Below, piece after piece: positions 4,012-64,000 of a DNA stretch of 64,000 nt (positions within the stretch are counted from its first letter, which is position 1; each line of letters begins with the position of its first letter). The position numbers and the translations under genes were made by a program. The stretch covers positions 19,072-83,071 of the forward strand of contig CAZIBB010000001.1 in assembly GCA_964537075.1 (NCBI GenBank), in the 5' to 3' direction. Below the pieces are notes generated by a model that saw only the letters and a list, made by a program, of their open reading frames with translations, searched no databases and was not told the DNA's origin. This DNA comes from an uncultured Bdellovibrionales bacterium (GTDB taxonomy: Bacteria; Patescibacteriota; Minisyncoccia; Moranbacterales; UBA1568).

Positions 4012-4051
4012 TTTTGGAGGCTAAACCTCCATGGAGGTTTAGCCTCCAAAA
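4012..4051. repeat. REP-like perfect palindrome TTTTGGAGGCTAAACCTCCATGGAGGTTTAGCCTCCAAAA flanking the transposase 3' end
   Basis: The 32-nt core GGAGGCTAAACCTCC-ATGG-AGGTTTAGCCTCC is its own reverse complement. It abuts the transposase stop codon at 4052-4054. Confidence 0.9.
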
Positions 4052-4711
4052 TTATTCCATCAACAAAGCTCTTTCAATCTGCTTTCTTTCTAAAATTCCA
4101 ATTAGGGAACTCTCTGAAAAATCTTTGTATTCCTCTTGACTGCGGAATTGTCCAAGTACAATATTTTTTTCACAATATTCGCGCTTTGTTTTTCCGATAT
4201 ATTCATTCCAACTTGAACGAGTAAGAATATCATCTTCATATCGATGCACACGAAAATTCAGATTTACATACGCACTCAAGTGCAATAAATATTCATTCGT
4301 TTCAATATGAATTGCCTTGAATGTTCCCTGGAACAGCGAGCCGCTTCGTGTATACTTTTTATTGAAATACATCGTGTATCCTGTACCAAATCGCTGCATA
4401 AACTTCTCCACCCCCTTATCTGAAACCTGCCTAAGAATAAAATGGAAATGATTCGGATTAATGCAGTATGCAATAACCTCAACCAACGGCTCTTCCTTTT
4501 CTTCATCCTTTATAACTACCTTTCCAAAACTTTTTTCATGAGATTTTTTTTCATAAATACTCCCTATAGGATTGAGTGTATTAAATTCAACCATGCTCTG
4601 CAGAAACCTCTCTGCATCAGTCACATCTTCTATAATCATTCTCTTTTCCACTCCACGATTATAAATATGATATACCTCCTCATTTGCAAATATCACTTTT
4701 CTCATAAGCAT
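4052..4711 (-). CDS. REP-associated tyrosine transposase (RAYT; Y1 HUH, IS200-like Y1_Tnp family)
   Basis: N-terminal YHIYNRG, HUH motif NPNHFHFIL, and a GSLFQGTFKAIHIE block comparable to the GxLWQxRYY region of Y1 transposases. The ORF track starts at 4756, inside the palindrome; the likely true start is M at 4711 or 4705 (MLMRKV...). Confidence 0.75.
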   Translation of the reverse strand: MLMRKVIFANEEVYHIYNRGVEKRMIIEDVTDAERFLQSMVEFNTLNPIGSIYEKKSHEKSFGKVVIKDEEKEEPLVEVIAYCINPNHFHFILRQVSDKGVEKFMQRFGTGYTMYFNKKYTRSGSLFQGTFKAIHIETNEYLLHLSAYVNLNFRVHRYEDDILTRSSWNEYIGKTKREYCEKNIVLGQFRSQEEYKDFSESSLIGILERKQIERALLME

Positions 4712-4719
4712 TGACGTTA

Positions 4720-4756
4720 TTTGGAGGCTAAACCTCCATGGAGGTTTAGCCTCCAC
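4720..4756. repeat. REP-like palindrome, second copy, flanking the transposase 5' end
   Basis: TTTGGAGGCTAAACCTCCATGGAGGTTTAGCCTCC, identical core to 4012..4051. Confidence 0.9.
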
Positions 4757-4764
4757 GATTTCAG

Positions 4765-12588: not shown

Positions 12589-12640
12589 AGTTTGAAGAAG
12601 AGTTTAGAGGAGAGAGATGAGAGTTTAGGAATTTTTATAA

Positions 12641-12664
12641 CGCCTGCCTGCCGGTAGGCAGGCG
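12641..12664. repeat. GC-rich palindrome CGCCTGCCTGCC-GGTA-GGCAGGCAGGCG
   Basis: Perfect 10-bp arms. Same family as 36323..36345 and 37421..37444. Confidence 0.85.
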
Positions 12665-15496: not shown

Positions 15497-15690
15497 TCCA
15501 GTATGATCCTTCGGGGCTCCGCGCGAAAAGAATCGCCAGAAATTCGTGACACCCAAAAGGATAGGTGCTCCAACTGGAGGAAGTGAAACGCCTTTGGAGC
15601 ATCCATACGGCGTGTCACTGAATTTCTCGATTCTTGTCGCAGGAGAGAGTTTCTTTGGCATACTTTTCTTTGCGGACAAAGAAAAGTATG
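15497..15690. repeat. Structured about 190-nt element, copy A (candidate ncRNA or palindromic MITE)
   Basis: Matches the reverse complement of 27371..27585. It folds into a long interrupted helix (AAGAATCG/CGATTCTT, AGAAATTC/GAATTTCT, GTGACAC/GTGTCAC) plus a perfect 10-bp terminal hairpin CTTTTCTTTG-CGGA-CAAAGAAAAG. Confidence 0.6.
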
Positions 15691-22848: not shown

Positions 22849-23036
22849 AATCTCTCTCAGATCTCACCGCAAAGATGAAAAAACAAAGACTTCTTCTGCT
22901 TGTCGCCTGAAATTCCATAATTTTGGCTGCAAATCCTGAAAAGCTCGTCGGGTTATCATGATAGCCCTCCTCACTTTTTCAGAATTTTCGCTCAAACTGA
23001 TGGAATTTCATGCCCGACATGAGATTTGAGAGAGAC
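22849..23036. mobile_element. MITE-like element, copy i (TIR flavour TCTCTCTCAGATCTCA / TGAGATTTGAGAGAGA)
   Basis: Terminal inverted repeats of 16 bp. The internal core CTGCTTGTCG..GGCTGCAAATCCTGAAAAGCTCGTCGGGTTATCATGATAGCCCTCCTCAC..TTTTCGCTC is shared with 41837..42018, 56352..56532 and 63832..64000. Confidence 0.8.
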
Positions 23037-23732
23037 TCTTTTAGAAATGCCTTTCCCGCGCCTCACGAGACAGAAAAGAAAGAGTGCCTCCGAAGCGAGG
23101 ATCTTGAATATCTCATAATCATCGAACTCATTCGATTTCTTCGGAAACACGATGAAGGCACGGAAATGATCCACGGCCTTCGGAGACGCCACCCGATAAT
23201 GATCATTTTCCAGCCAAAAATGACGTACTTTTTCATGAAGGAGAGATTCATGGGTAATATCTGAGAAAACACCTTTCTTCCCGCTCACGAAGGATCTCTC
23301 TATGCGGTGTTCCGTCGTATGTACGAAATATATGGCTACCGAATCAGCCTTGGAAAGAATCTTTACCGCATCGAGTATCGGCTGATACAGCTCATCGTCC
23401 TTGGCAGTCCGACCGAATGTGGCGAGCGTCCCCGGAAGCGCCCCAACTGACCGCTTGAGGATTTCGAATTTCCGGTTGAGTTCACCAATATATGAATACG
23501 AGCTCTCAAGATCCTTGAAAATGATATTTTTCTCTTGTCGTATTTTTTTTTGTTCCCCGCGTATTTTTCTGAGAGCGCGCTCTTTCGCGAGGTACAGAAG
23601 AAATCCTATCAAGGAAAGGAAAAAGATAAACAATGATTCCGCGTCATCCTCACTCAAAAAGAAATATCCCTGCCGAATATACTCCGGTGAGAATACCATG
23701 AGAACGAAAATAGTGAGGTATATCCAATACAC
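22992..23732 (-). CDS. Hypothetical membrane protein; its last 15 or so codons come from the MITE
   Basis: 246 aa. Two N-terminal TM helices. The C-terminus ...KRVSLKSHVGHEIPSV lies inside MITE copy i. Confidence 0.4.
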   Translation of the reverse strand: MYWIYLTIFVLMVFSPEYIRQGYFFLSEDDAESLFIFFLSLIGFLLYLAKERALRKIRGEQKKIRQEKNIIFKDLESSYSYIGELNRKFEILKRSVGALPGTLATFGRTAKDDELYQPILDAVKILSKADSVAIYFVHTTEHRIERSFVSGKKGVFSDITHESLLHEKVRHFWLENDHYRVASPKAVDHFRAFIVFPKKSNEFDDYEIFKILASEALFLFCLVRRGKGISKRVSLKSHVGHEIPSV

Positions 23733-25490: not shown

Positions 25491-25532
25491 TTTTTGGAGG
25501 TCGAACCTCCATGGAGGTTCGACCTCCAAAAA
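25491..25532. repeat. REP-like palindrome, third (orphan) copy, variant GGAGGTCGAACCTCC-ATGG-AGGTTCGACCTCC
   Basis: Same GGAGG...CCTCC-ATGG-GGAGG...CCTCC architecture as the copies flanking the transposase. The loop change CTAAA to TCGAA is mirrored symmetrically in the other half. Confidence 0.85.
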
Positions 25533-26774
25533 TTACTTATACAACGGAAACTGCTTGCATAACACTCGTATATCCTTACGCAACTTGTTACGTAACTTCG
25601 CATCGCCTTTATTCTTCCAGGCGGTATCGATGATACGGGCGATTTCCTTCACTTCACGCTCTTTCATCCCGCGTGTCGTGATCGCTGGAACGCCGATACG
25701 CACCCCACTCGGATCGAGCGGCCCGCGCGGATCATCCGGAATGACATTCTTATTGATGGTGATCCCCACTTCCTCCAATATATATTCCGCTTCCTTTCCA
25801 GTGAGGCCATAGCTCTTCACCGTATCGATCACGATCATATGATTCTCCGTTCCACCGAAGAGAATATACGCGCCGCCCTTATAGAGTTCCTTTTCGAGCA
25901 CCTTCGCATTTTTCAGTGTCTGTTTCGCGTACTTCCTGAACTCTGGTTTCAATGCCTCACCGAATGCCACCGCTTTGGCCGCCACGACGTGCATGTGTGG
26001 CCCTCCCTGCGTTCCCGGGAAAATAGCCTTGTCAATCGCCCTTGCAAATTCTTTCTTGCAGAGAATCATGCCTCCACGCGGTCCGCGCAGCGTCTTGTGC
26101 GTCGTCGCTGTCACGATATCGAAGTGCGGCACCGGACTCGGCAGCGCTTTCCCGGCGATGAGTCCCGCGATATGCGCCATGTCCATCATGGTCAATGCCT
26201 TCACCTTCTTTGCAATCGCGACGAACAACGCATAATCAATCTGCCGGGTATATGAAGAGAATCCCGCGAGCATGAGCTTCGGTTTTTCTTTTCTCGCAAG
26301 CGCTTCCAATTTTTTATAATCGATGCTGCCATCAGGTTCGGTTTTGTACCGAACGAAATTATACACCTTGGCCGGCAAGGTCACCGGATGACCATGCGTC
26401 AGATGTCCGCCATGAGAGAGATCCATGCCGAGCACCGTATCGCCCGGCTGAAGGAGTGCTGCATATACAGCGAGATTCGCCTGCGCCCCCGAATGCGCCT
26501 GCACATTCGCATGTTCCGCTCCGAACAATTTCTTCACGCGATCGAGCGCGAGCGTTTCCGCGACATCCGTCCATTCCTGTCCGCCATAGTACCTTTTCCC
26601 CGGATACCCTTCGGAATATTTGTTCGTGAAGACCGTCCCGAGCGTTTCCATCACCGCCTGCGAGACATAATTCTCCGACGCGATCATTTCCAATCCTTCT
26701 TCCTGCCGTTTTTCTTCGCCCATCACCGCGGCATACACCGCCTTGTCCGCCTTCTTCAGAATATCATGCTTCAT
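25533..26774 (-). CDS. glyA: Serine hydroxymethyltransferase
   Basis: PLP site [12 protein letters not shown] and the GHLTHGH block; 413 aa. Confidence 0.9.
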
Positions 26775-27370: not shown

Positions 27371-27585
27371 TCTTTCATACTTTTCTTTGTCCGCAAAGAA
27401 AAGTAGACAAAAGAAACTCTCTCCTGCGAACAAATCGATAAATTCTTCGACACCCTTATGGAAGCCTCCAAAGGCGCTTCACTTCCTCCAGTTGGAGCTT
27501 CTGTCCTTTTTGGGTGTCGAGAATTTCTAGCGATTCTTTTCGCGCGGAGCCCACGCAGGACCAAGTTTAGAGAAAATAATAAAGG
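27371..27585. repeat. Structured about 190-nt element, copy B (inverted orientation relative to copy A)
   Basis: Reverse complement aligns with 15497..15690. Helix positions carry compensatory changes: GTGACAC/GTGTCAC in A against TCGACAC/GTGTCGA in B. Confidence 0.6.
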
Positions 27586-37344: not shown

Positions 37345-37466
37345 AATTTCGAATTTCGAATTTTTAATTTCGAGTGAATTCTAAATGACTTCATATTTCA
37401 ATCATTCAAAAACTCATCATTCCTGCCTGCCGGCAGGCAGGGATTCAAAATTCGAAATTCGAAATT
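37345..37466. mobile_element. 122-bp mini-element with perfect 20-nt terminal inverted repeats (AATTTCGAATTTCGAATTTT) enclosing a CCTGCCTGCC-GGCAGGCAGG palindrome
   Basis: Left arm 37345-37364, right arm 37447-37466 (exact reverse complement). Internal palindrome 37421-37444. It fills the mraZ-rsmH spacer. Confidence 0.6.
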
Positions 37467-38111: not shown

Positions 38112-38150
38112 CAGGAAAAACAAAAAACGGCTTATAATAACCGTTTTTAT
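38112..38150 (-). terminator. Rho-independent terminator (reads as hairpin plus T-run on the minus strand)
   Basis: AAAACGG-CTTATAATAA-CCGTTTT with an A-run before and a T-run after. Bidirectional in principle. Confidence 0.55.
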
Positions 38151-38302
38151 AAATATCCAGATTTTTCTCCTTCAAATAAATTCTTCAGCGTGACTTTACG
38201 ATCAAAAGCATGGTCTTTTTTGCTTTTAAAAAAAGTTTTGAGCGTAATGTCAGTTCAGTTTCGCTGGAAACCGAACGGCGATGGAAAATTTATTTGAAGG
38301 AT

Positions 38303-38535
38303 GATAAATGGTATTAACCCCAAAGCAAGCTCTTGACACTGAAATGAACAAAAGTTCATTTCATTTCCGCGTCCCGTCTCGCCGACGAGGTAGACAAGCC
38401 GCGGGGTATTTACCCTGTGTTACCCGCCTCGCGTCGATGAGTCCGTGAGTCGAGGCGGGCCGTCACTCTCCGTCAGCTGACGGACGAAAGTAAAAGTAAG
38501 AACTTTTAGCCTTACTCACTCACTCGGTAATAAAT
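38303..38535. ncRNA. Candidate structured RNA, family S2 copy 1 (orientation unresolved)
   Basis: Shares the 5' block ATAAATGGTATTAACCCC and GGTATTTACCC/GTTACC/CGTCACTC/ACTCACTC..GGTAATAA blocks with 43965..44126. Three hairpins carry compensatory substitutions between copies, and copy 1 has extra hairpin insertions (GCCTCG...CGAGGC, CCGTCAG-CTGACGG). TGGTATTAA resembles an extended -10. Confidence 0.5.
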
Positions 38536-38592
38536 TTTCCATCCTATATGGTAATCTCCCCCATGGGAAGCATCGCTCAAAATTCATGTCAT

Positions 38593-41836: not shown

Positions 41837-42018
41837 AGAGCCTGTTGAAAAATCCACCGCCTGTGATATAGAGATCTGCTTGTCGGCTATAATCTCAGAA
41901 TTTCGGCTGCAAATCCTGAAAAGCTCGTCGGGGTATCATGATAGCCCTCCTCACCTGTTCAGAATTTTCGCTCGAAATTCTGAAATTATAACTCGACATG
42001 ACTTTTTCAACAGGCTCT
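41837..42018. mobile_element. MITE-like element, copy ii (TIR flavour AGAGCCTGTTGAAAAA / TTTTTCAACAGGCTCT)
   Basis: 182 bp with perfect 16-17-bp terminal inverted repeats and the same core as copy i. Confidence 0.8.
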
Positions 42019-42044
42019 GAGACATTCTATTCTAACAACTTTTC

Positions 42045-42722: not shown

Positions 42723-43958
42723 TCAAGGCTTTGCAGGCAAATCCGATTGAAAATCGATATACTTCCTCCCTATGAGTTTTTCCGGAAGATACGCCTGCCT
42801 CGCCTCCTCCTTGTTTTTGAAATCCGGAGTGTATTTGTAGTCCTTTCCGTAGCCCAATCCCTTCATCAATTTAGTCGGAGCATTCCGGAGATGCAGTGGC
42901 ACCGGCTCATTCGGAAATTTCGCAATATCTTCTTTCACCCTCGCATATCCCGCATAGAGCGCATTTGATTTCTTCGACTTCGCGAGATACACAACCGCCT
43001 GTGCAAGATTCATTTCGCATTCAGGCATACCGATATTCCTGCATGCCTCGAAAGCGGCAACCGCCTGCGGCAACGCGAATGAATTGGCGATACCGATATC
43101 TTCCGAAGCGAACCGTATGAGGCGCCTCGCGACATATAGAGGATCCTCCCCAGCCTCGAGCATCCGTCCGAGCCAATAGAGCGAAGCGTTTGCATCATCC
43201 CCGCGCATGGATTTATGCAACGCCGAAATGATATCATAATGCCATTCGCCATCCTTATCATAAAGCAGATGGGAACGCGCCATCACCTCCTCGATCAGTT
43301 TCACCGAGATCTTCGCCGCGCGCATCGCGCATGCCTCAAGCGCCGAGAGTGCCTGACGTGCATCGCCCCCCGATGCCTCCGCGAGAAACAAAAGTCCTCC
43401 CTTCTCCACTGAAATTTTTCCTGAGAGAAGCACTTCATCGGAAGCGAGCGCCCGCTCCAATAACTTCTCGATGACTGCGGCGGAAAGTTTTTCCAATACC
43501 AAAACGCGCGTCCGGGAGAGCAGTGCAGCATTCACGGAAAAACTCGGGTTCTCGGTCGTCGCCCCGATAAGGATGATTATCCCATTCTCGACATATGGAA
43601 GCAGAGCATCCTGCTGCGCCTTGTTCCATCGATGTATCTCATCAAGAAAAAGAATCGTTCGTCTCTTCGCTTCGTAGTTTTCTTTCGCGCGCGCTATCAC
43701 CATCTGCAAATCCTTCTTCCCGCTGCTGACCGCCGAAAGCTGAATGAATTCCGCGGAAAGTTCCGTCGTGAGGAGCCTTGCGAGCGTCGTCTTGCCACTT
43801 CCTGGTGGCCCCCAAAAGAGAAGCGACGGAACACTCCCTTGCCGGACCGCCTCGCGGAGAAACGACCCCTCTCCAAAAATTTTCTCCTGTCCAAAAAACT
43901 CCGAAATCGTTTTCGGTCGCAATCGTTCCGCAAGCGGGATGTTTTTTTGCTCACTCAT
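42723..43958 (-). CDS. rarA: Replication-associated recombination protein A (RarA/MgsA AAA+ ATPase)
   Basis: Walker [12 protein letters not shown], ...[16 protein letters not shown]..., MgsA C-terminal helical domains. Likely start [15 protein letters not shown] at 43958. Confidence 0.85.
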
Positions 43959-43964
43959 AATAAA

Positions 43965-44126
43965 TGGTATTAACCCCGGAGCAAGCTCCGGACATTGAAA
44001 CGAGCAAGAGCTCGTTTCAATTTCGCGGTCCCGCCATGGCGGGACGAGGTATTTACCCATATGTTACCGTCACTCGCTCGAAAGTGAAAGTAAGAACTTT
44101 CACTTTACTCACTCGCTAGGTAATAA
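43965..44126. ncRNA. Candidate structured RNA, family S2 copy 2
   Basis: See copy 1. Hairpins CCGGAG-CAAG-CTCCGG, TTGAAACGAGC-AAGA-GCTCGTTTCAA, AGTGAAAG-TAAGAA-CTTTCACT. It fills the tsaC-rarA spacer, ending 7 nt before the rarA ATG. Confidence 0.5.
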
Positions 44127-56351: not shown

Positions 56352-56532
56352 AGAGCCTGTTGAAAAATCCACCGCCTGTCAAAAAAGATATGCTTGTCGG
56401 CTTACATTCCAGAATTTCGGCTGCAAACCCCTCAAAGCTCGTCGGAATATCCCGATATTCCTCCTCACTTTTCACGGTTTTCGCTCGAAATTCTGGAATG
56501 TAACGCTCGACATGGCTTTTTCAACAGGCTCT
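56352..56532. mobile_element. MITE-like element, copy iii (AGAGCCTGTTGAAAAA flavour)
   Basis: 181 bp with perfect terminal inverted repeats. Its end abuts the pilO stop codon. Confidence 0.8.
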
Positions 56533-57248
56533 TAATCCTTGGTATAGACGACGATACTGAAAAAAGCTTGTACTAATTTTTTCGCGACCGGTTGCTCCGA
56601 AACGGAAGCAGTACCATCTGAAAATATCGGGTTATTGGTTACAAACGCACTGCCGCGCGACACGCCAGAATCACTTGGTTCCCATTGCCGTATATCAAGC
56701 GACACCACATCGATCGAATAAGACAATGACTCCAACTGATGCAAGAATTGAGCTACCTTCGCATACTCTCCCCGAACATCGAGGCGAAGCGACATATACT
56801 GATCAAACGGCAGATTCTTGAGAATACTTTCGTCTTTCTTCTTTTCCGTATTACTACTGCTTTCATCACTTAATTTGTCGGCATTTTTTGGGGCGGTGAC
56901 CTTGTTCTTCAGCGCCTGATCCTGATTCGTGATACTAATCTCCACATCATTACCATGAGCCAATAATTCGATACTTTCGATAAACGGTACCACCTGATCA
57001 TGACTGACCAAGGTATCGAATTTCCCCTCGTCCTGAAGGATAAGGTCATACTGTTCCCTCAATTGCGGCAGTTCTTTCACTCGGTTCTCTTTGCTTTCTT
57101 GCAAGGCATGATTCGCTTCGATGGTATTCGCCTTCTCAACGATCAGTCTCTGAAAAGGGAAAATACCCCACTGGAAAAGAGCCGCAAAGAGAAGGAATGC
57201 CGTGGCAATGATTCCCAAGGGGATCCACTTGTGTATGGATGAGTTCAT
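56532..57248 (-). CDS. pilO: Type IV pilus assembly protein PilO
   Basis: N-terminal TM plus coiled coil, positioned after pilN. Confidence 0.55.
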   Translation of the reverse strand: MNSSIHKWIPLGIIATAFLLFAALFQWGIFPFQRLIVEKANTIEANHALQESKENRVKELPQLREQYDLILQDEGKFDTLVSHDQVVPFIESIELLAHGNDVEISITNQDQALKNKVTAPKNADKLSDESSSNTEKKKDESILKNLPFDQYMSLRLDVRGEYAKVAQFLHQLESLSYSIDVVSLDIRQWEPSDSGVSRGSAFVTNNPIFSDGTASVSEQPVAKKLVQAFFSIVVYTKD

Positions 57249-63784: not shown

Positions 63785-63831
63785 ACACGTTCTTTATTTT
63801 TCTTTTTTTGGTACACGAAATTCCATAAGTA

Positions 63832-64000
63832 TCTCTCTCAAATCTCACCGCATGAGATAAAAAAACAAAGATTTCTCCTGCTTGTCGGCTAAAATTTCAT
63901 CATTTCGGCTGCAAATCTCGAAAATCTCGTCGGAATATCCAGATATTCCTCCCTGCCCGAAATGCTACGCATGCCGTTGCAGGCGGGCTCACTTTTCAAA
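63832..64000. mobile_element. MITE-like element, copy iv (TCTCTCTCAAATCTCA flavour), truncated by the window end
   Basis: Begins TCTCTCTCAAATCTCACCGCATGAGAT...CTGCTTGTCGGCT...GGCTGCAAATCTCGAAAATCTCGTCGG. Same core as copies i to iii. Confidence 0.7.

What the first reader, a model, noticed from the sequence alone, without database searches (positions are those of the whole stretch)
38303..38535. Two-copy structured element S2 (38303-38535 and 43965-44126) with three hairpins showing compensatory base changes: candidate novel ncRNA or cis-regulatory RNA
The copies share the blocks ATAAATGGTATTAACCCC, GGTATTTACCC, GTTACC, CGTCACTC and TTACTCACTC.CT.GGTAATAA. Three stems differ in sequence but stay paired. 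Stem one is GAAATGAAC-AAAA-GTTCATTTC in copy 1 against TTGAAACGAGC-AAGA-GCTCGTTTCAA in copy 2. Stem two is TAAAAG-TAAGAA-CTTTTA against AGTGAAAG-TAAGAA-CTTTCACT. Stem three is TCTCGCCGACGA against CCATGGCGGGA. Copy 1 also carries two extra self-complementary insertions, typical of RNA expansion segments. Covariation that preserves helices is the classic signature of a functional RNA. Both copies lie directly 3' of a minus-strand gene stop (sulP; tsaC). Copy 2 ends 7 nt before the rarA start codon. The conserved TGGTATTAA would serve as an extended -10 if they are independent plus-strand sRNAs.
Basis: partly seen in the sequence, partly recalled or inferred. Interest (0 to 1): 0.7.

Follow-up and report, generated by a model that had tools for sequence, protein, structure and literature searches.

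The report
Mobile hairpin-rich repeat, not a regulator
The two look-alike stretches are copies of a small, heavily folded "jumping" DNA element scattered through genomes of Moranbacteria (tiny CPR bacteria) and some Bacteroidales. It keeps its fold through compensating mutations but is not tied to particular genes, so it is an uncatalogued mobile repeat rather than a gene-specific regulatory RNA.

Summary
Two homologous, highly structured copies lie on the minus strand at 38304-38534 and 43959-44126, and Rfam has no match.

They are not a private two-copy RNA and not a regulator of sulP, mraZ, tsaC or rarA. They belong to a large interspersed repeat family of at least 120 copies in 66 sequence clusters, found in Moranbacteria MAGs and in Bacteroidales metagenome contigs.

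Relatives of the window genome have tsaC and rarA overlapping by 4 nt, with no element between them. In another locus a copy splits an IS200 transposase gene whose intact homologues show the empty site. Copies have no terminal inverted repeats and no target duplication longer than 1-3 nt. They sit directly 3' of a T-rich target (TTATT) and end in TTTATT. Their orientation relative to genes is about 50:50.

The fold is under selection. Two CUUG-loop hairpins and a long-range closing helix covary (0 of 500 shuffles reach the observed score), and G.U pairs outnumber A.C 42 to 7 on the sense strand.

My best reading is a non-autonomous, structure-dependent mobile element of the IS200/IS605-PATE or REPIN kind, moved in trans. 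No cognate transposase was found, so the mechanism is inferred. This is a new variant of a known kind and of moderate interest.

The parts
38304..38534 (-). Copy 1 of the element (231 nt), in the sulP 3' UTR upstream of the terminator at 38123-38148 and of mraZ
   Evidence: model R1, 47.8 bits, E 2.6e-10 for its 3' module 38303-38372
43959..44126 (-). Copy 2 of the element (168 nt), inserted exactly at the former tsaC-stop / rarA-start overlap
   Evidence: R1 51.6 bits, E 2.3e-11 for 43959-44029
44119..44123 (-). Copy 2, 5' strand of closing helix A0 (UUACC). It pairs with 44064-44068 (GGUAA) and encloses the 5' domain
   Evidence: MFE fold. Family covariation: TTACC/GGTAA, TTAGC/GCTAA, TTGCC/GGCAA, TTGGC/GCCAA, TTTCC/GGAAA, TTTGC/GCAAA
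44083..44104 (-). The copy 1 equivalent is 38491-38508
44048..44058 (-). Copy 2, 5' block GGGUAAAUACC (copy 1: 38405-38415), a conserved unpaired or junction sequence preceding hairpin P1
44025..44048 (-). Copy 2, hairpin P1 (UCCCGC-CAUG-GCGGGA plus flanking CG).
   Evidence: Family P1 covariation
43995..44020 (-). Copy 1: 38341-38362
   Evidence: Absent in compact family members
43976..43991 (-). Copy 2, hairpin P2 CCGGAG-CUUG-CUCCGG. Copy 1: 38320-38335, CAAGAG-CUUG-CUUUGG with a G.U pair
43959..43975 (-). Copy 2, 3' block GGUUAAUACC plus terminal A-UUUAUU. Copy 1: 38304-38319. This is the most conserved part of the family and forms its right end
38469..38484 (-). Copy 1-specific palindromic insertion TCCGTCAGCTGACGGA in the 5' domain. 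The same palindrome forms P1 in locus L053
38425..38461 (-). Copy 1-specific hairpin insertion (CCCGCCTCG...CGAGGCGGG) next to helix A0. It is shared with metagenome copy L119
38280..38294 (.). One arm of a pre-existing 15-bp palindrome (the other arm is 38530-38544) into which copy 1 is inserted. Removing the element restores a 15-bp stem with a 9-nt loop
   Evidence: 100% match over 15 nt
44109..44111 (-). tsaC stop codon, lying inside copy 2. The window TsaC ends GEQLLPSE. The last three residues (PSE) and the stop are read from the element. Without the element the frame would read GEQLL-stop, overlapping the rarA ATG
43956..43958 (-). rarA start codon, directly abutting the element's terminal TTATT. 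No Shine-Dalgarno sequence is left upstream

Best explanation
S2 is a family of small (about 46-330 nt), non-autonomous mobile elements. I propose that their single-stranded form (window minus strand) folds into a conserved architecture.

The architecture, 5' to 3', is:
- T-rich target, then an optional 5' domain closed by a covarying helix (UU-NNC with GNN-AA);
- a 4-nt linker and a 5' block (GGGUAUAAUACC-like);
- a CUUG hairpin (P1), AA, an optional hairpin, GU, and a second CUUG hairpin (P2);
- a 3' block (GGUUAAUACC) and N-UUUAUU.

Shown:
- The element inserts into new sites: the tsaC/rarA junction here, an IS200 tnpA gene, and a Bacteroidales intergenic site.
- It has no terminal inverted repeats and no target duplication beyond 1-3 ambiguous bases.
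- It always sits 3' of a T-rich target, and its right end repeats that target.
- It occurs in many near-identical copies per genome.
- Its helices are kept by compensatory change with strand-specific wobble pairs.

Inferred:
- It is moved in trans by a single-strand-specific enzyme of the HUH/Y1 (IS200/IS605 TnpA or RAYT) kind.
- That enzyme would recognise the two subterminal hairpins and cut next to the TTATT motifs.
- The closing helix of the 5' domain is conserved because it keeps the left cleavage site next to the 5' block and P1 when extra hairpins are inserted.

In this window both copies are passengers in minus-strand transcripts. Copy 1 lies in the sulP 3' UTR. Copy 2 separated the formerly overlapping tsaC and rarA genes and changed the TsaC C-terminus.
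For: Family and copy number:
- The genome scan found 7 near-identical copies on 7 contigs of one MAG, plus a Moraniibacteriota copy.
- The metagenome scan gave 111 stretches in 66 clusters. Many contigs end in the element.
- Model R1 finds exactly 2 copies in the window and about 90 in the loci.

Insertion:
- tsaC and rarA overlap by 4 nt or lie 18 nt apart, with no element, in relatives with 81-85% RarA identity.
- Copy X1 splits an IS200 tnpA gene at TTTATT|AATCC. The intact homologues L141 and L142 give the empty site.
- The element is present in 99-100% identical Bacteroidales strains but absent in an 88% relative.
- Copy 1 sits inside a pre-existing palindrome.

Ends:
- No TIR is present.
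- The left flank is TTATT in the CPR-type copies. It is T or TT in 14 independent Bacteroidales sites, with no duplication.

Structure:
- P1 and P2 are 85.6% paired, with a covariation score of 0.468 against 0.246 in shuffles (0 of 500).
- A0, the apical stem and P2 are 95.3% paired, score 0.444 against 0.167 (0 of 500), and pairing drops sharply when the partners are slid.
- RNAalifold finds A0 independently.
- In P2 the counts are WC 189, G.U 42, A.C 7.

Not gene-linked:
- No neighbouring protein family recurs.
- Orientation is 41:36 and 36:34.
Against: - No transposase with matching ends was found. The only Y1 transposase nearby (L042) is an unrelated IS200 with its own CGGGC-TAAA-GCCCG hairpins, and it is a victim of insertion.
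- A Y1 HMM found nothing else in 150 loci or in the window.
- Element orientation shows no bias relative to the majority gene strand: 13:15 and 9:9. IS200/IS605 elements usually show a replication-linked bias, although gene strand on short contigs is a weak proxy.
- The 5' domain has conserved purine-rich internal loops (AGCGAG... / CGAGCGAG...) and G(CUUG)C loops. These are more typical of a functional RNA than of transposon ends.
- In one case (X1) a 3-nt ATT duplication cannot be excluded.
- The family was collected with patterns that fix the 3' block and part of P2, so conservation of those bases is by construction.
Confidence: 0.55

Rival explanations
1. A multicopy, self-propagating small RNA gene. 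This would be a trans-acting structured sRNA or a guide or scaffold RNA, such as an orphan omega-RNA-like partner of a transposon nuclease. Its copies spread by the same or another mechanism, and the fold is conserved because the RNA itself works.
For: - The architecture is complex: conserved junction sequences, variable-length stems and G(CUUG)C tetraloops.
- Wobble pairs are strand-specific, 42 G.U against 7 A.C.
- Helix A0 covaries over a long range.
- Stems carry hairpin 'expansion segments'.
- The conserved scaffold ends exactly at the element boundary, as in TnpB omega RNAs (my own knowledge, not tested).
Against: - No conserved promoter lies upstream. Flanks diverge immediately outside TTATT, and promoter scans are at background.
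- There is no canonical terminator at the 3' end.
- Orientation is random with respect to host transcription.
- No nuclease gene is adjacent in about 110 loci.
- Rfam families, including HEARO and the IS605-orfB motifs, do not match.
Confidence: 0.2
2. A classical MITE moved as double-stranded DNA by a DDE transposase, with a very short (1-3 bp) target duplication. The hairpins would be incidental or selected for host effects such as termination or mRNA stabilisation.
For: - It is small, intergenic, multicopy and non-coding.
- A possible ATT duplication occurs at the X1 site.
- Another repeat in the same window does have terminal inverted repeats, so MITE-type elements are active in this genome.
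Against: - No subfamily has terminal inverted repeats. The two ends carry direct, not inverted, similarity.
- There is no duplication at 14 independent Bacteroidales sites.
- Covariation of a helix spanning 60-110 nt, and wobble asymmetry, are not expected for a duplex substrate.
Confidence: 0.1
3. One reading: a cis-regulatory RNA or a pair of dedicated sRNAs serving the adjacent genes (sulP/mraZ and tsaC/rarA).
For: - Both window copies lie in the sense orientation inside minus-strand transcription units. Copy 2 abuts the rarA start codon.
- The structure is conserved.
Against: - The orthologous tsaC-rarA and mraZ upstream regions in relatives lack it.
- Family members flank unrelated genes in both orientations. 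They also lie next to tRNAs, inside a transposase gene, and in another phylum.
Confidence: 0.03
4. A small self-splicing or self-cleaving mobile RNA (intron-like). Precise removal at the TTATT repeats would restore the interrupted message, for example the tsaC-stop/rarA-start overlap.
For: - Removing copy 2 between its TTATT repeats recreates TTATTATGA, the ancestral overlap.
- The whole element, not only its ends, is structurally conserved.
- One copy sits inside an ORF.
Against: - The ORF-internal copy is antisense to the gene.
- Orientation relative to genes is random.
- Sizes down to 46-84 nt are far below known self-splicing introns.
- No match to any ribozyme or intron family was found.
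Confidence: 0.04

Closest known systems
PATEs (palindrome-associated transposable elements), the non-autonomous derivatives of IS200/IS605 insertion sequences moved by the Y1 HUH transposase TnpA
   Same: - No terminal inverted repeats and no target duplication.
- Insertion directly 3' of a short specific sequence, with a right end that resembles that target.
- Subterminal hairpins near both ends, on one defined strand.
- Non-coding and multicopy.
   Different: - No full-length IS with the same ends was found.
- The hairpins are unrelated to those of the one IS200 seen.
- There is an elaborate conserved 5' domain with a covarying closing helix.
- No orientation bias was detected.
REP/BIME elements and REPINs, mobilised by RAYT (REP-associated tyrosine transposase)
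   Same: - Extragenic, hairpin-forming and dispersed in tens of copies.
- Presumed to be moved in trans by a single-copy Y1 enzyme.
- Can be co-transcribed in 3' UTRs.
   Different: - REPs are 20-40 nt simple palindromes with a 5' GTAG, usually in inverted pairs flanking the RAYT gene.
- S2 is larger and multi-hairpin, with distinct left and right ends. No flanked RAYT was seen.
Bacterial MITE-like repeats (Correia/NEMIS, ERIC/IRU, RUP, BOX, Rickettsia palindromic elements)
   Same: - Small, structured, interspersed repeats that can land at gene boundaries or in ORFs and alter C-termini or spacing.
- Modular, with optional internal units, like BOX.
   Different: Those with known mechanisms have terminal inverted repeats and TA or longer duplications. 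S2 has neither.
Transposon-associated guide RNAs (TnpB/IscB omega RNA, HEARO, IS110 bridge RNA)
   Same: A structured 100-300 nt RNA-like scaffold that ends at a transposon boundary, is multicopy, and sometimes occurs as orphans.
   Different: - No adjacent nuclease or recombinase gene in about 110 loci.
- No Rfam match.
- No evidence of transcription.

Membership tests
Any Rfam 15 RNA family (riboswitches, leaders, sRNAs, ribozymes, HEARO, IS605-orfB motifs) | Covariance-model score at or above the family's gathering threshold | tested here: not met
   There were 0 hits in the whole window. E-value mode on both copies gave only noise of 20 bits or less. There was no hit on the element in 12 family loci.
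Cis-regulatory leader / riboswitch | Conserved position and orientation upstream of a functionally coherent gene set | tested here: not met
   No neighbour family recurs. Orientation is 41:36 and 36:34. The element is absent from orthologous loci.
IS200/IS605-derived PATE | No terminal inverted repeats | tested here: met
   Ends compared in all subfamilies.
IS200/IS605-derived PATE | No target-site duplication; insertion 3' of a conserved short target | tested here: met
   The left flank is TTATT in CPR-type copies. It is T or TT with no duplication at 14 Bacteroidales sites. A 3-nt ATT ambiguity remains at X1.
IS200/IS605-derived PATE | Subterminal hairpins at both ends on the same (top) strand | tested here: met
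   P1 and P2 are both G(CUUG)C hairpins on one strand, with covariation and G.U much more frequent than A.C. In long variants P1 is distant from the left end in sequence, and helix A0 would bring them together (inference).
IS200/IS605-derived PATE | Ends homologous to those of a full-length IS encoding TnpA (and optionally TnpB) | tested here: not met
   No autonomous relative was found among 150 loci. Whole genomes could not be scanned.
IS200/IS605-derived PATE | Orientation bias relative to replication direction | tested here: inconclusive
   Counts were 13 same to 15 opposite relative to the majority gene strand. This is only a proxy on short contigs. Both window copies are co-oriented with 55 of 61 genes.
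REP/BIME-RAYT (REPIN) | Short palindromes of 20-40 nt with a conserved 5' tetranucleotide, in inverted doublets, flanking a RAYT gene | tested here: not met
   The element is 46-330 nt with distinct ends. The only Y1 gene seen is interrupted by a copy, not flanked by a functional pair.
DDE-type MITE | Terminal inverted repeats plus a fixed-length target duplication | tested here: not met
Group II intron / known self-cleaving ribozymes | Match to intron domain or ribozyme models; GUGYG...AY boundaries | tested here: not met
   The element gives no hit. The group II intron in L039 is a separate neighbour that starts 60 nt downstream.
Independent sRNA gene | Own promoter and terminator; discrete transcript | not testable with these tools
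   Consensus scans are at background. No transcriptome data were available.

The most novel reading that the evidence does not exclude
S2 is a previously unrecognised class of mobile structured nucleic acid shared by CPR bacteria and Bacteroidales, in which the conserved fold is itself the active agent. It could be an orphan guide or scaffold RNA for a transposon-encoded nuclease or recombinase acting in trans. It could also be a very small self-processing (ribozyme-like) element that restores interrupted messages. In either case it would be more than a passive substrate of a Y1 transposase.
Probability: 0.12. Interest if true: 0.85.

Novelty: new variant of a known kind. Interest (0 to 1): 0.45.

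Why it matters
CPR (Patescibacteria) genomes are about 1 Mb, streamlined, and thought to be poor in mobile DNA. Yet this 64-kb window alone carries several repeat families.

S2 shows that a structure-dependent, TIR-less and TSD-less mobile element is active in Moranbacteria, and that close relatives of it live in Bacteroidales. That implies either horizontal spread between a CPR lineage and a phylum of potential hosts or neighbours, or an old and widely distributed mobilising enzyme.

S2 also reshapes genes. Here it split a translationally coupled tsaC-rarA pair, rewrote the TsaC C-terminus and removed the rarA ribosome-binding context. It also breaks metagenome assemblies.

For RNA-motif discovery it is a cautionary case. 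Strong helix covariation and the absence of an Rfam hit do not by themselves indicate a regulatory RNA.

If the fold proves to be an active RNA (a guide or a ribozyme), it would be a new tool-like system from an unexplored part of the tree.

Tried and rejected
- T-box or riboswitch guess from the first look at the minus strand. Rejected by Rfam.
- tRNA or tmRNA. None found in the window.
- Promoter-carrying element. Left as unsupported.
- Cis-encoded mobilising protein. All-against-all clustering of 773 ORFs within 2.5 kb of copies gave no recurrent family. ORFs next to atypical copies were housekeeping genes or an IS4/5 transposase that had itself inserted into a copy.
- The Y1 transposase in L042 looked like a RAYT flanked by two copies. 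Alignment to intact homologues showed it is an ordinary IS200 gene split by a copy, and the homologues' loci lack S2.
- Replication-linked orientation bias. None detected with the gene-strand proxy.
- Plasmid, phage and viral-contig searches. No match.
- L010 (a Bacteroidales MAG hit to the first pattern, R1 37 bits) has the two blocks but no convincing P2. Left as uncertain.
- Pairing between the 5' and 3' blocks (P0). It is possible for GGUAU/AUACC plus ACC/GGU, but it could not be tested because the search patterns fixed the 3' block.
- Integron attC. There are no RYYYAAC or GTTRRRY cores and no cassette arrays (by inspection).
- Literature searches for a described CPR repeat or RNA motif found nothing relevant.

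Full report
**1. The observation**

The two stretches are real and homologous. Read on the minus strand, which is the strand of every flanking gene, copy 1 spans 38304-38534 and copy 2 spans 43959-44126.
- They align with 77% column identity, and the differences are concentrated in stems and in three hairpin insertions of copy 1.
- blastn of one copy against the window finds the other at E = 8e-16 and 2e-11, and nothing else.
- Both strands fold far better than shuffled controls, with z from -5.2 to -6.7.
A fourth hairpin, CCGGAG-CUUG-CUCCGG against CAAGAG-CUUG-CUUUGG, was overlooked.
- 'Stem three' is a GC-rich hairpin in both copies but is not homologous base for base.

**2. Gene context**

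The flanking genes, all on the minus strand, are mraW, mraZ, [copy 1], sulP, an M17 peptidase, rarA, [copy 2], tsaC, an exonuclease and a MiaB-like enzyme.
- The tsaC stop codon (44111-44109) lies inside copy 2.
- The last TTATT of copy 2 touches the rarA ATG (43958-43956).
- Copy 1 lies in the sulP 3' UTR, 155 nt before a good minus-strand terminator (38148-38123) and the mraZ promoter.
- RarA homologues identify the organism as a Candidatus Moranbacteria (CPR) bacterium. The best hit is 87% identical.

**3. Known RNA families**

Rfam 15 gives no hit at gathering thresholds anywhere in the 64 kb. It gives only noise in permissive mode on either copy. The window has no tRNA.

**4. Copy 2 is an insertion**

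In three relatives with 81-85% identical RarA, tsaC and rarA either overlap by 4 nt (ATGA), are 18 nt apart, or tsaC is missing. No element is present there or upstream of mraZ.
- The window's TsaC ends ...GEQLLPSE, whereas the closest relative's ends ...NEETI.
- Deleting copy 2 between its flanking TTATT motifs gives CAATTATTATGAGTGAG. That restores a GEQLL-stop frame overlapping ATG AGT GAG, the same coupled arrangement as in the relatives.
- Copy 1 sits inside a 15-bp perfect palindrome (38280-38294 and 38530-38544). Removing the element restores a simple hairpin.

**5. A large family**

A scan of one genome per species, using the two conserved blocks as the pattern, found:
- seven near-identical copies on seven contigs of one MAG (CAIZIN01, bin-301), two of them at contig ends;
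- one copy in a Moraniibacteriota MAG, directly after an ftsZ-like gene, next to a 5'-domain-only copy in the opposite orientation.

A metagenome scan with a 3'-end pattern found 111 stretches. Together with the window this makes 120 matches in 66 sequence clusters. Many lie at contig ends, and more than 20 contigs from a single sample carry them.

A covariance model of the compact 3' module (R1) finds exactly the two copies in the window (51.6 and 47.8 bits). It finds about 90 in the loci, including copies that do not match the exact pattern, and none in the close relatives' loci.

Sizes run from about 46 nt (one hairpin between the two blocks) and 84 nt (two hairpins) up to more than 300 nt.

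**6. Host range**

The most abundant subfamily (L035 type) sits in Bacteroidales.
- The neighbouring ArgRS has its named relatives in Bacteroidales and Bacteroidota.
- Neighbouring genes carry DUF3857/3858, M64 peptidase and Por_Secre_tail domains.

The family therefore spans CPR and Bacteroidota. Nothing was found in phage, plasmid or viral-contig collections.

**7. Not gene-linked**

- Clustering all ORFs within 2.5 kb of the copies gives no recurrent neighbour.
- The nearest downstream gene is co-oriented 41 times and opposed 36 times. For the upstream gene the counts are 36 and 34.
- Copies lie after stop codons, flush against start codons, 7 nt and 30 nt upstream of tRNA genes, and inside a gene.

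This excludes a dedicated cis-regulatory role.

**8. More filled and empty sites, and the ends**

In L042 a copy (X1) splits an IS200-type tnpA gene (Pfam Y1_Tnp, E = 2e-16), antisense to the gene.
- Alignment with two intact homologues shows a clean insertion of about 140 nt at TGGATT-AAT|...|AAT-AAAAAT. In element orientation this is directly after TTTATT.
- That IS200 has its own, unrelated terminal hairpins, and its homologues' loci lack S2. It is therefore a victim of insertion, not the driver.

In Bacteroidales, strains with 99-100% identical ArgRS carry a copy between two genes, while an 88% relative does not.

Across subfamilies:
- there are no terminal inverted repeats;
- the right end is always ...GGTTAATACC-N-TTTAT(T), or ...CCCGTGATT in the X type;
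- the left flank is TTATT in CPR-type copies;
- the left flank ends in T at 13 of 14 independent Bacteroidales sites (TT at 9 of them), with no duplication there.

**9. Structure under selection**

- On 16 compact members, P1 and P2 are 85.6% paired. There are 33 doubly changed cells, against 10.9 in shuffles. The covariation score is 0.468 against 0.246, reached by 0 of 500 shuffles. Pairing collapses when partners are slid.
- In 13 long members, RNAalifold independently predicts a closing helix between the first bases (UU-NNC, including the last two Ts of the TTATT) and GNN-AA, just before a 4-nt linker and the 5' block.
- The observed helix versions are TTACC/GGTAA, TTAGC/GCTAA, TTGCC/GGCAA, TTGGC/GCCAA, TTTCC/GGAAA, TTTGC/GCAAA and TTTTC/GGAAA.
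- Counted with the apical stem and P2, cells are 95.3% paired, against 81.1% in shuffles. The score is 0.444 against 0.167, reached by 0 of 500 shuffles.
- Over 39 distinct P2 hairpins there are 189 Watson-Crick, 42 G.U and 7 A.C cells (17 against 7 at the positions not fixed by my pattern).
- The free middle of the P2 loop is TT in 34 of 39.
- P1, which the pattern does not constrain, has a CTTG loop in most compact members (10 of 16 by my reading of the alignment).

The structured strand is therefore the window's minus strand, and a single-stranded form (RNA or ssDNA) is what is selected.

**10. Mechanism**

Several features point to the IS200/IS605 kind of element and its non-autonomous PATEs, which are moved as single strands by a Y1 HUH transposase. 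REPIN/RAYT systems are a looser parallel. These features are:
- no inverted repeats and no target duplication;
- a fixed T-rich target 5' of the element, echoed at the right end;
- two similar subterminal hairpins on one strand, with the second 10 nt from the terminal motif;
- strand-specific wobble pairs.

On this reading the minimal 84-nt form is a left end (target, 13 nt, P1) joined to a right end (P2, 10 nt, TTTATT). The 5' domain, the middle hairpin and the loop insertions are tolerated as long as each closes on itself. That would explain why helix A0 covaries: it holds the left cleavage site next to the 5' block and P1.

This step is inference. Against it:
- no cognate transposase was found in the DNA I could reach;
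- there is no orientation bias relative to the majority gene strand (13:15);
- the conserved purine-rich internal loops and G(CUUG)C loops look RNA-like.

An RNA-gene or guide-RNA reading therefore stays open at about 0.2. No promoter, terminator or partner gene supports it.

**11. Verdict**

The element is an uncatalogued mobile, structure-dependent interspersed repeat, not a two-copy regulatory RNA.
- That it is a mobile repeat family: about 0.9.
- That it moves by an HUH-type single-strand mechanism: about 0.4.

No description of it was found in Rfam or in the searched literature.

**12. Caveats**

- The family was gathered with exact patterns that fix the two blocks (genome scan), or the 3' block and the P2 loop ends (metagenome scan). 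Conservation of those bases is by construction, and more divergent members were missed.
- ORF calls in the loci are mechanical.
- Host assignment rests on a few neighbouring proteins.

Noticed in passing
window 22860-23060, 41840-42040, 56354-56554, 63800-63990: A second repeat family with four copies of about 190 nt. It has terminal inverted repeats (AGAGCCTGTTGAAAAA ... TTTTTCAACAGGC) and a conserved core (…CCGACGAGCTTTTCAGGATTTGCAGCCGAAATT…). Each copy lies in an intergenic gap between minus-strand genes. It looks like a TIR-type MITE.
   Followed up: partly
window 4013-4053, 4720-4760, 25493-25533: A 36-41 nt perfect palindrome, TTTGGAGGCTAAACCTCCATGGAGGTTTAGCCTCCAAA, present three times.
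   Followed up: no
window 15514-15690 and 27376-27552: Inverted repeats of about 180 nt (78-94% complementary) flanking an 11.7-kb segment. This could be a composite element or an invertible or integrated region (I1-I4).
   Followed up: no
window 12634-12662 and 37422-37450; L098 about 60-90: The GC-rich palindrome CCTGCCTGCCGGCAGGCAGG recurs in the window, and the same palindrome sits inside hairpin P1 of an S2 copy in L098. Other copies (L115, L119, L053, L097) carry small hairpins inserted in the CUUG loops with duplication of GCTTG. This suggests a class of tiny palindromes that invade hairpin loops.
   Followed up: partly
L042 4058-4703: An IS200-like tnpA gene (Y1_Tnp) is split by an S2-type copy inserted antisense. 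A second copy lies 530 nt away in the same orientation.
   Followed up: yes
L033 2578-3569 (and L113): An IS4/5-family transposase ORF (DUF4096) abuts a 5'-truncated S2 copy. An IS appears to have inserted into the element's P1 region.
   Followed up: partly
L039 826-1090 (minus strand): A group II intron (RF02001, 71 bits) begins with GTGCG about 60 nt downstream of an S2 copy, directly after a separate hairpin plus T-run. This is the arrangement typical of terminator-targeting bacterial introns.
   Followed up: partly
L037 3176-3246; L087 3615-3686: tRNA genes start 7 nt and 30 nt downstream of the S2 3' end on the same strand. I could not tell whether the element supplies a promoter or merely shares the AT-rich target.
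   Followed up: no
window, whole: 55 of 61 mechanically called ORFs are on the minus strand, and there is no tRNA in 64 kb. An ORF through copy 2 (42723-44060) is open and in frame with rarA, starting at an ATG inside the element. I judged this to be chance.
   Followed up: no
L011 5645-5710: A copy of the 5' domain alone (90% identical to window copy 2) lies in inverse orientation directly upstream of a gene start, 170 nt from a full copy. The 5' domain can therefore exist as a separate module.
   Followed up: partly
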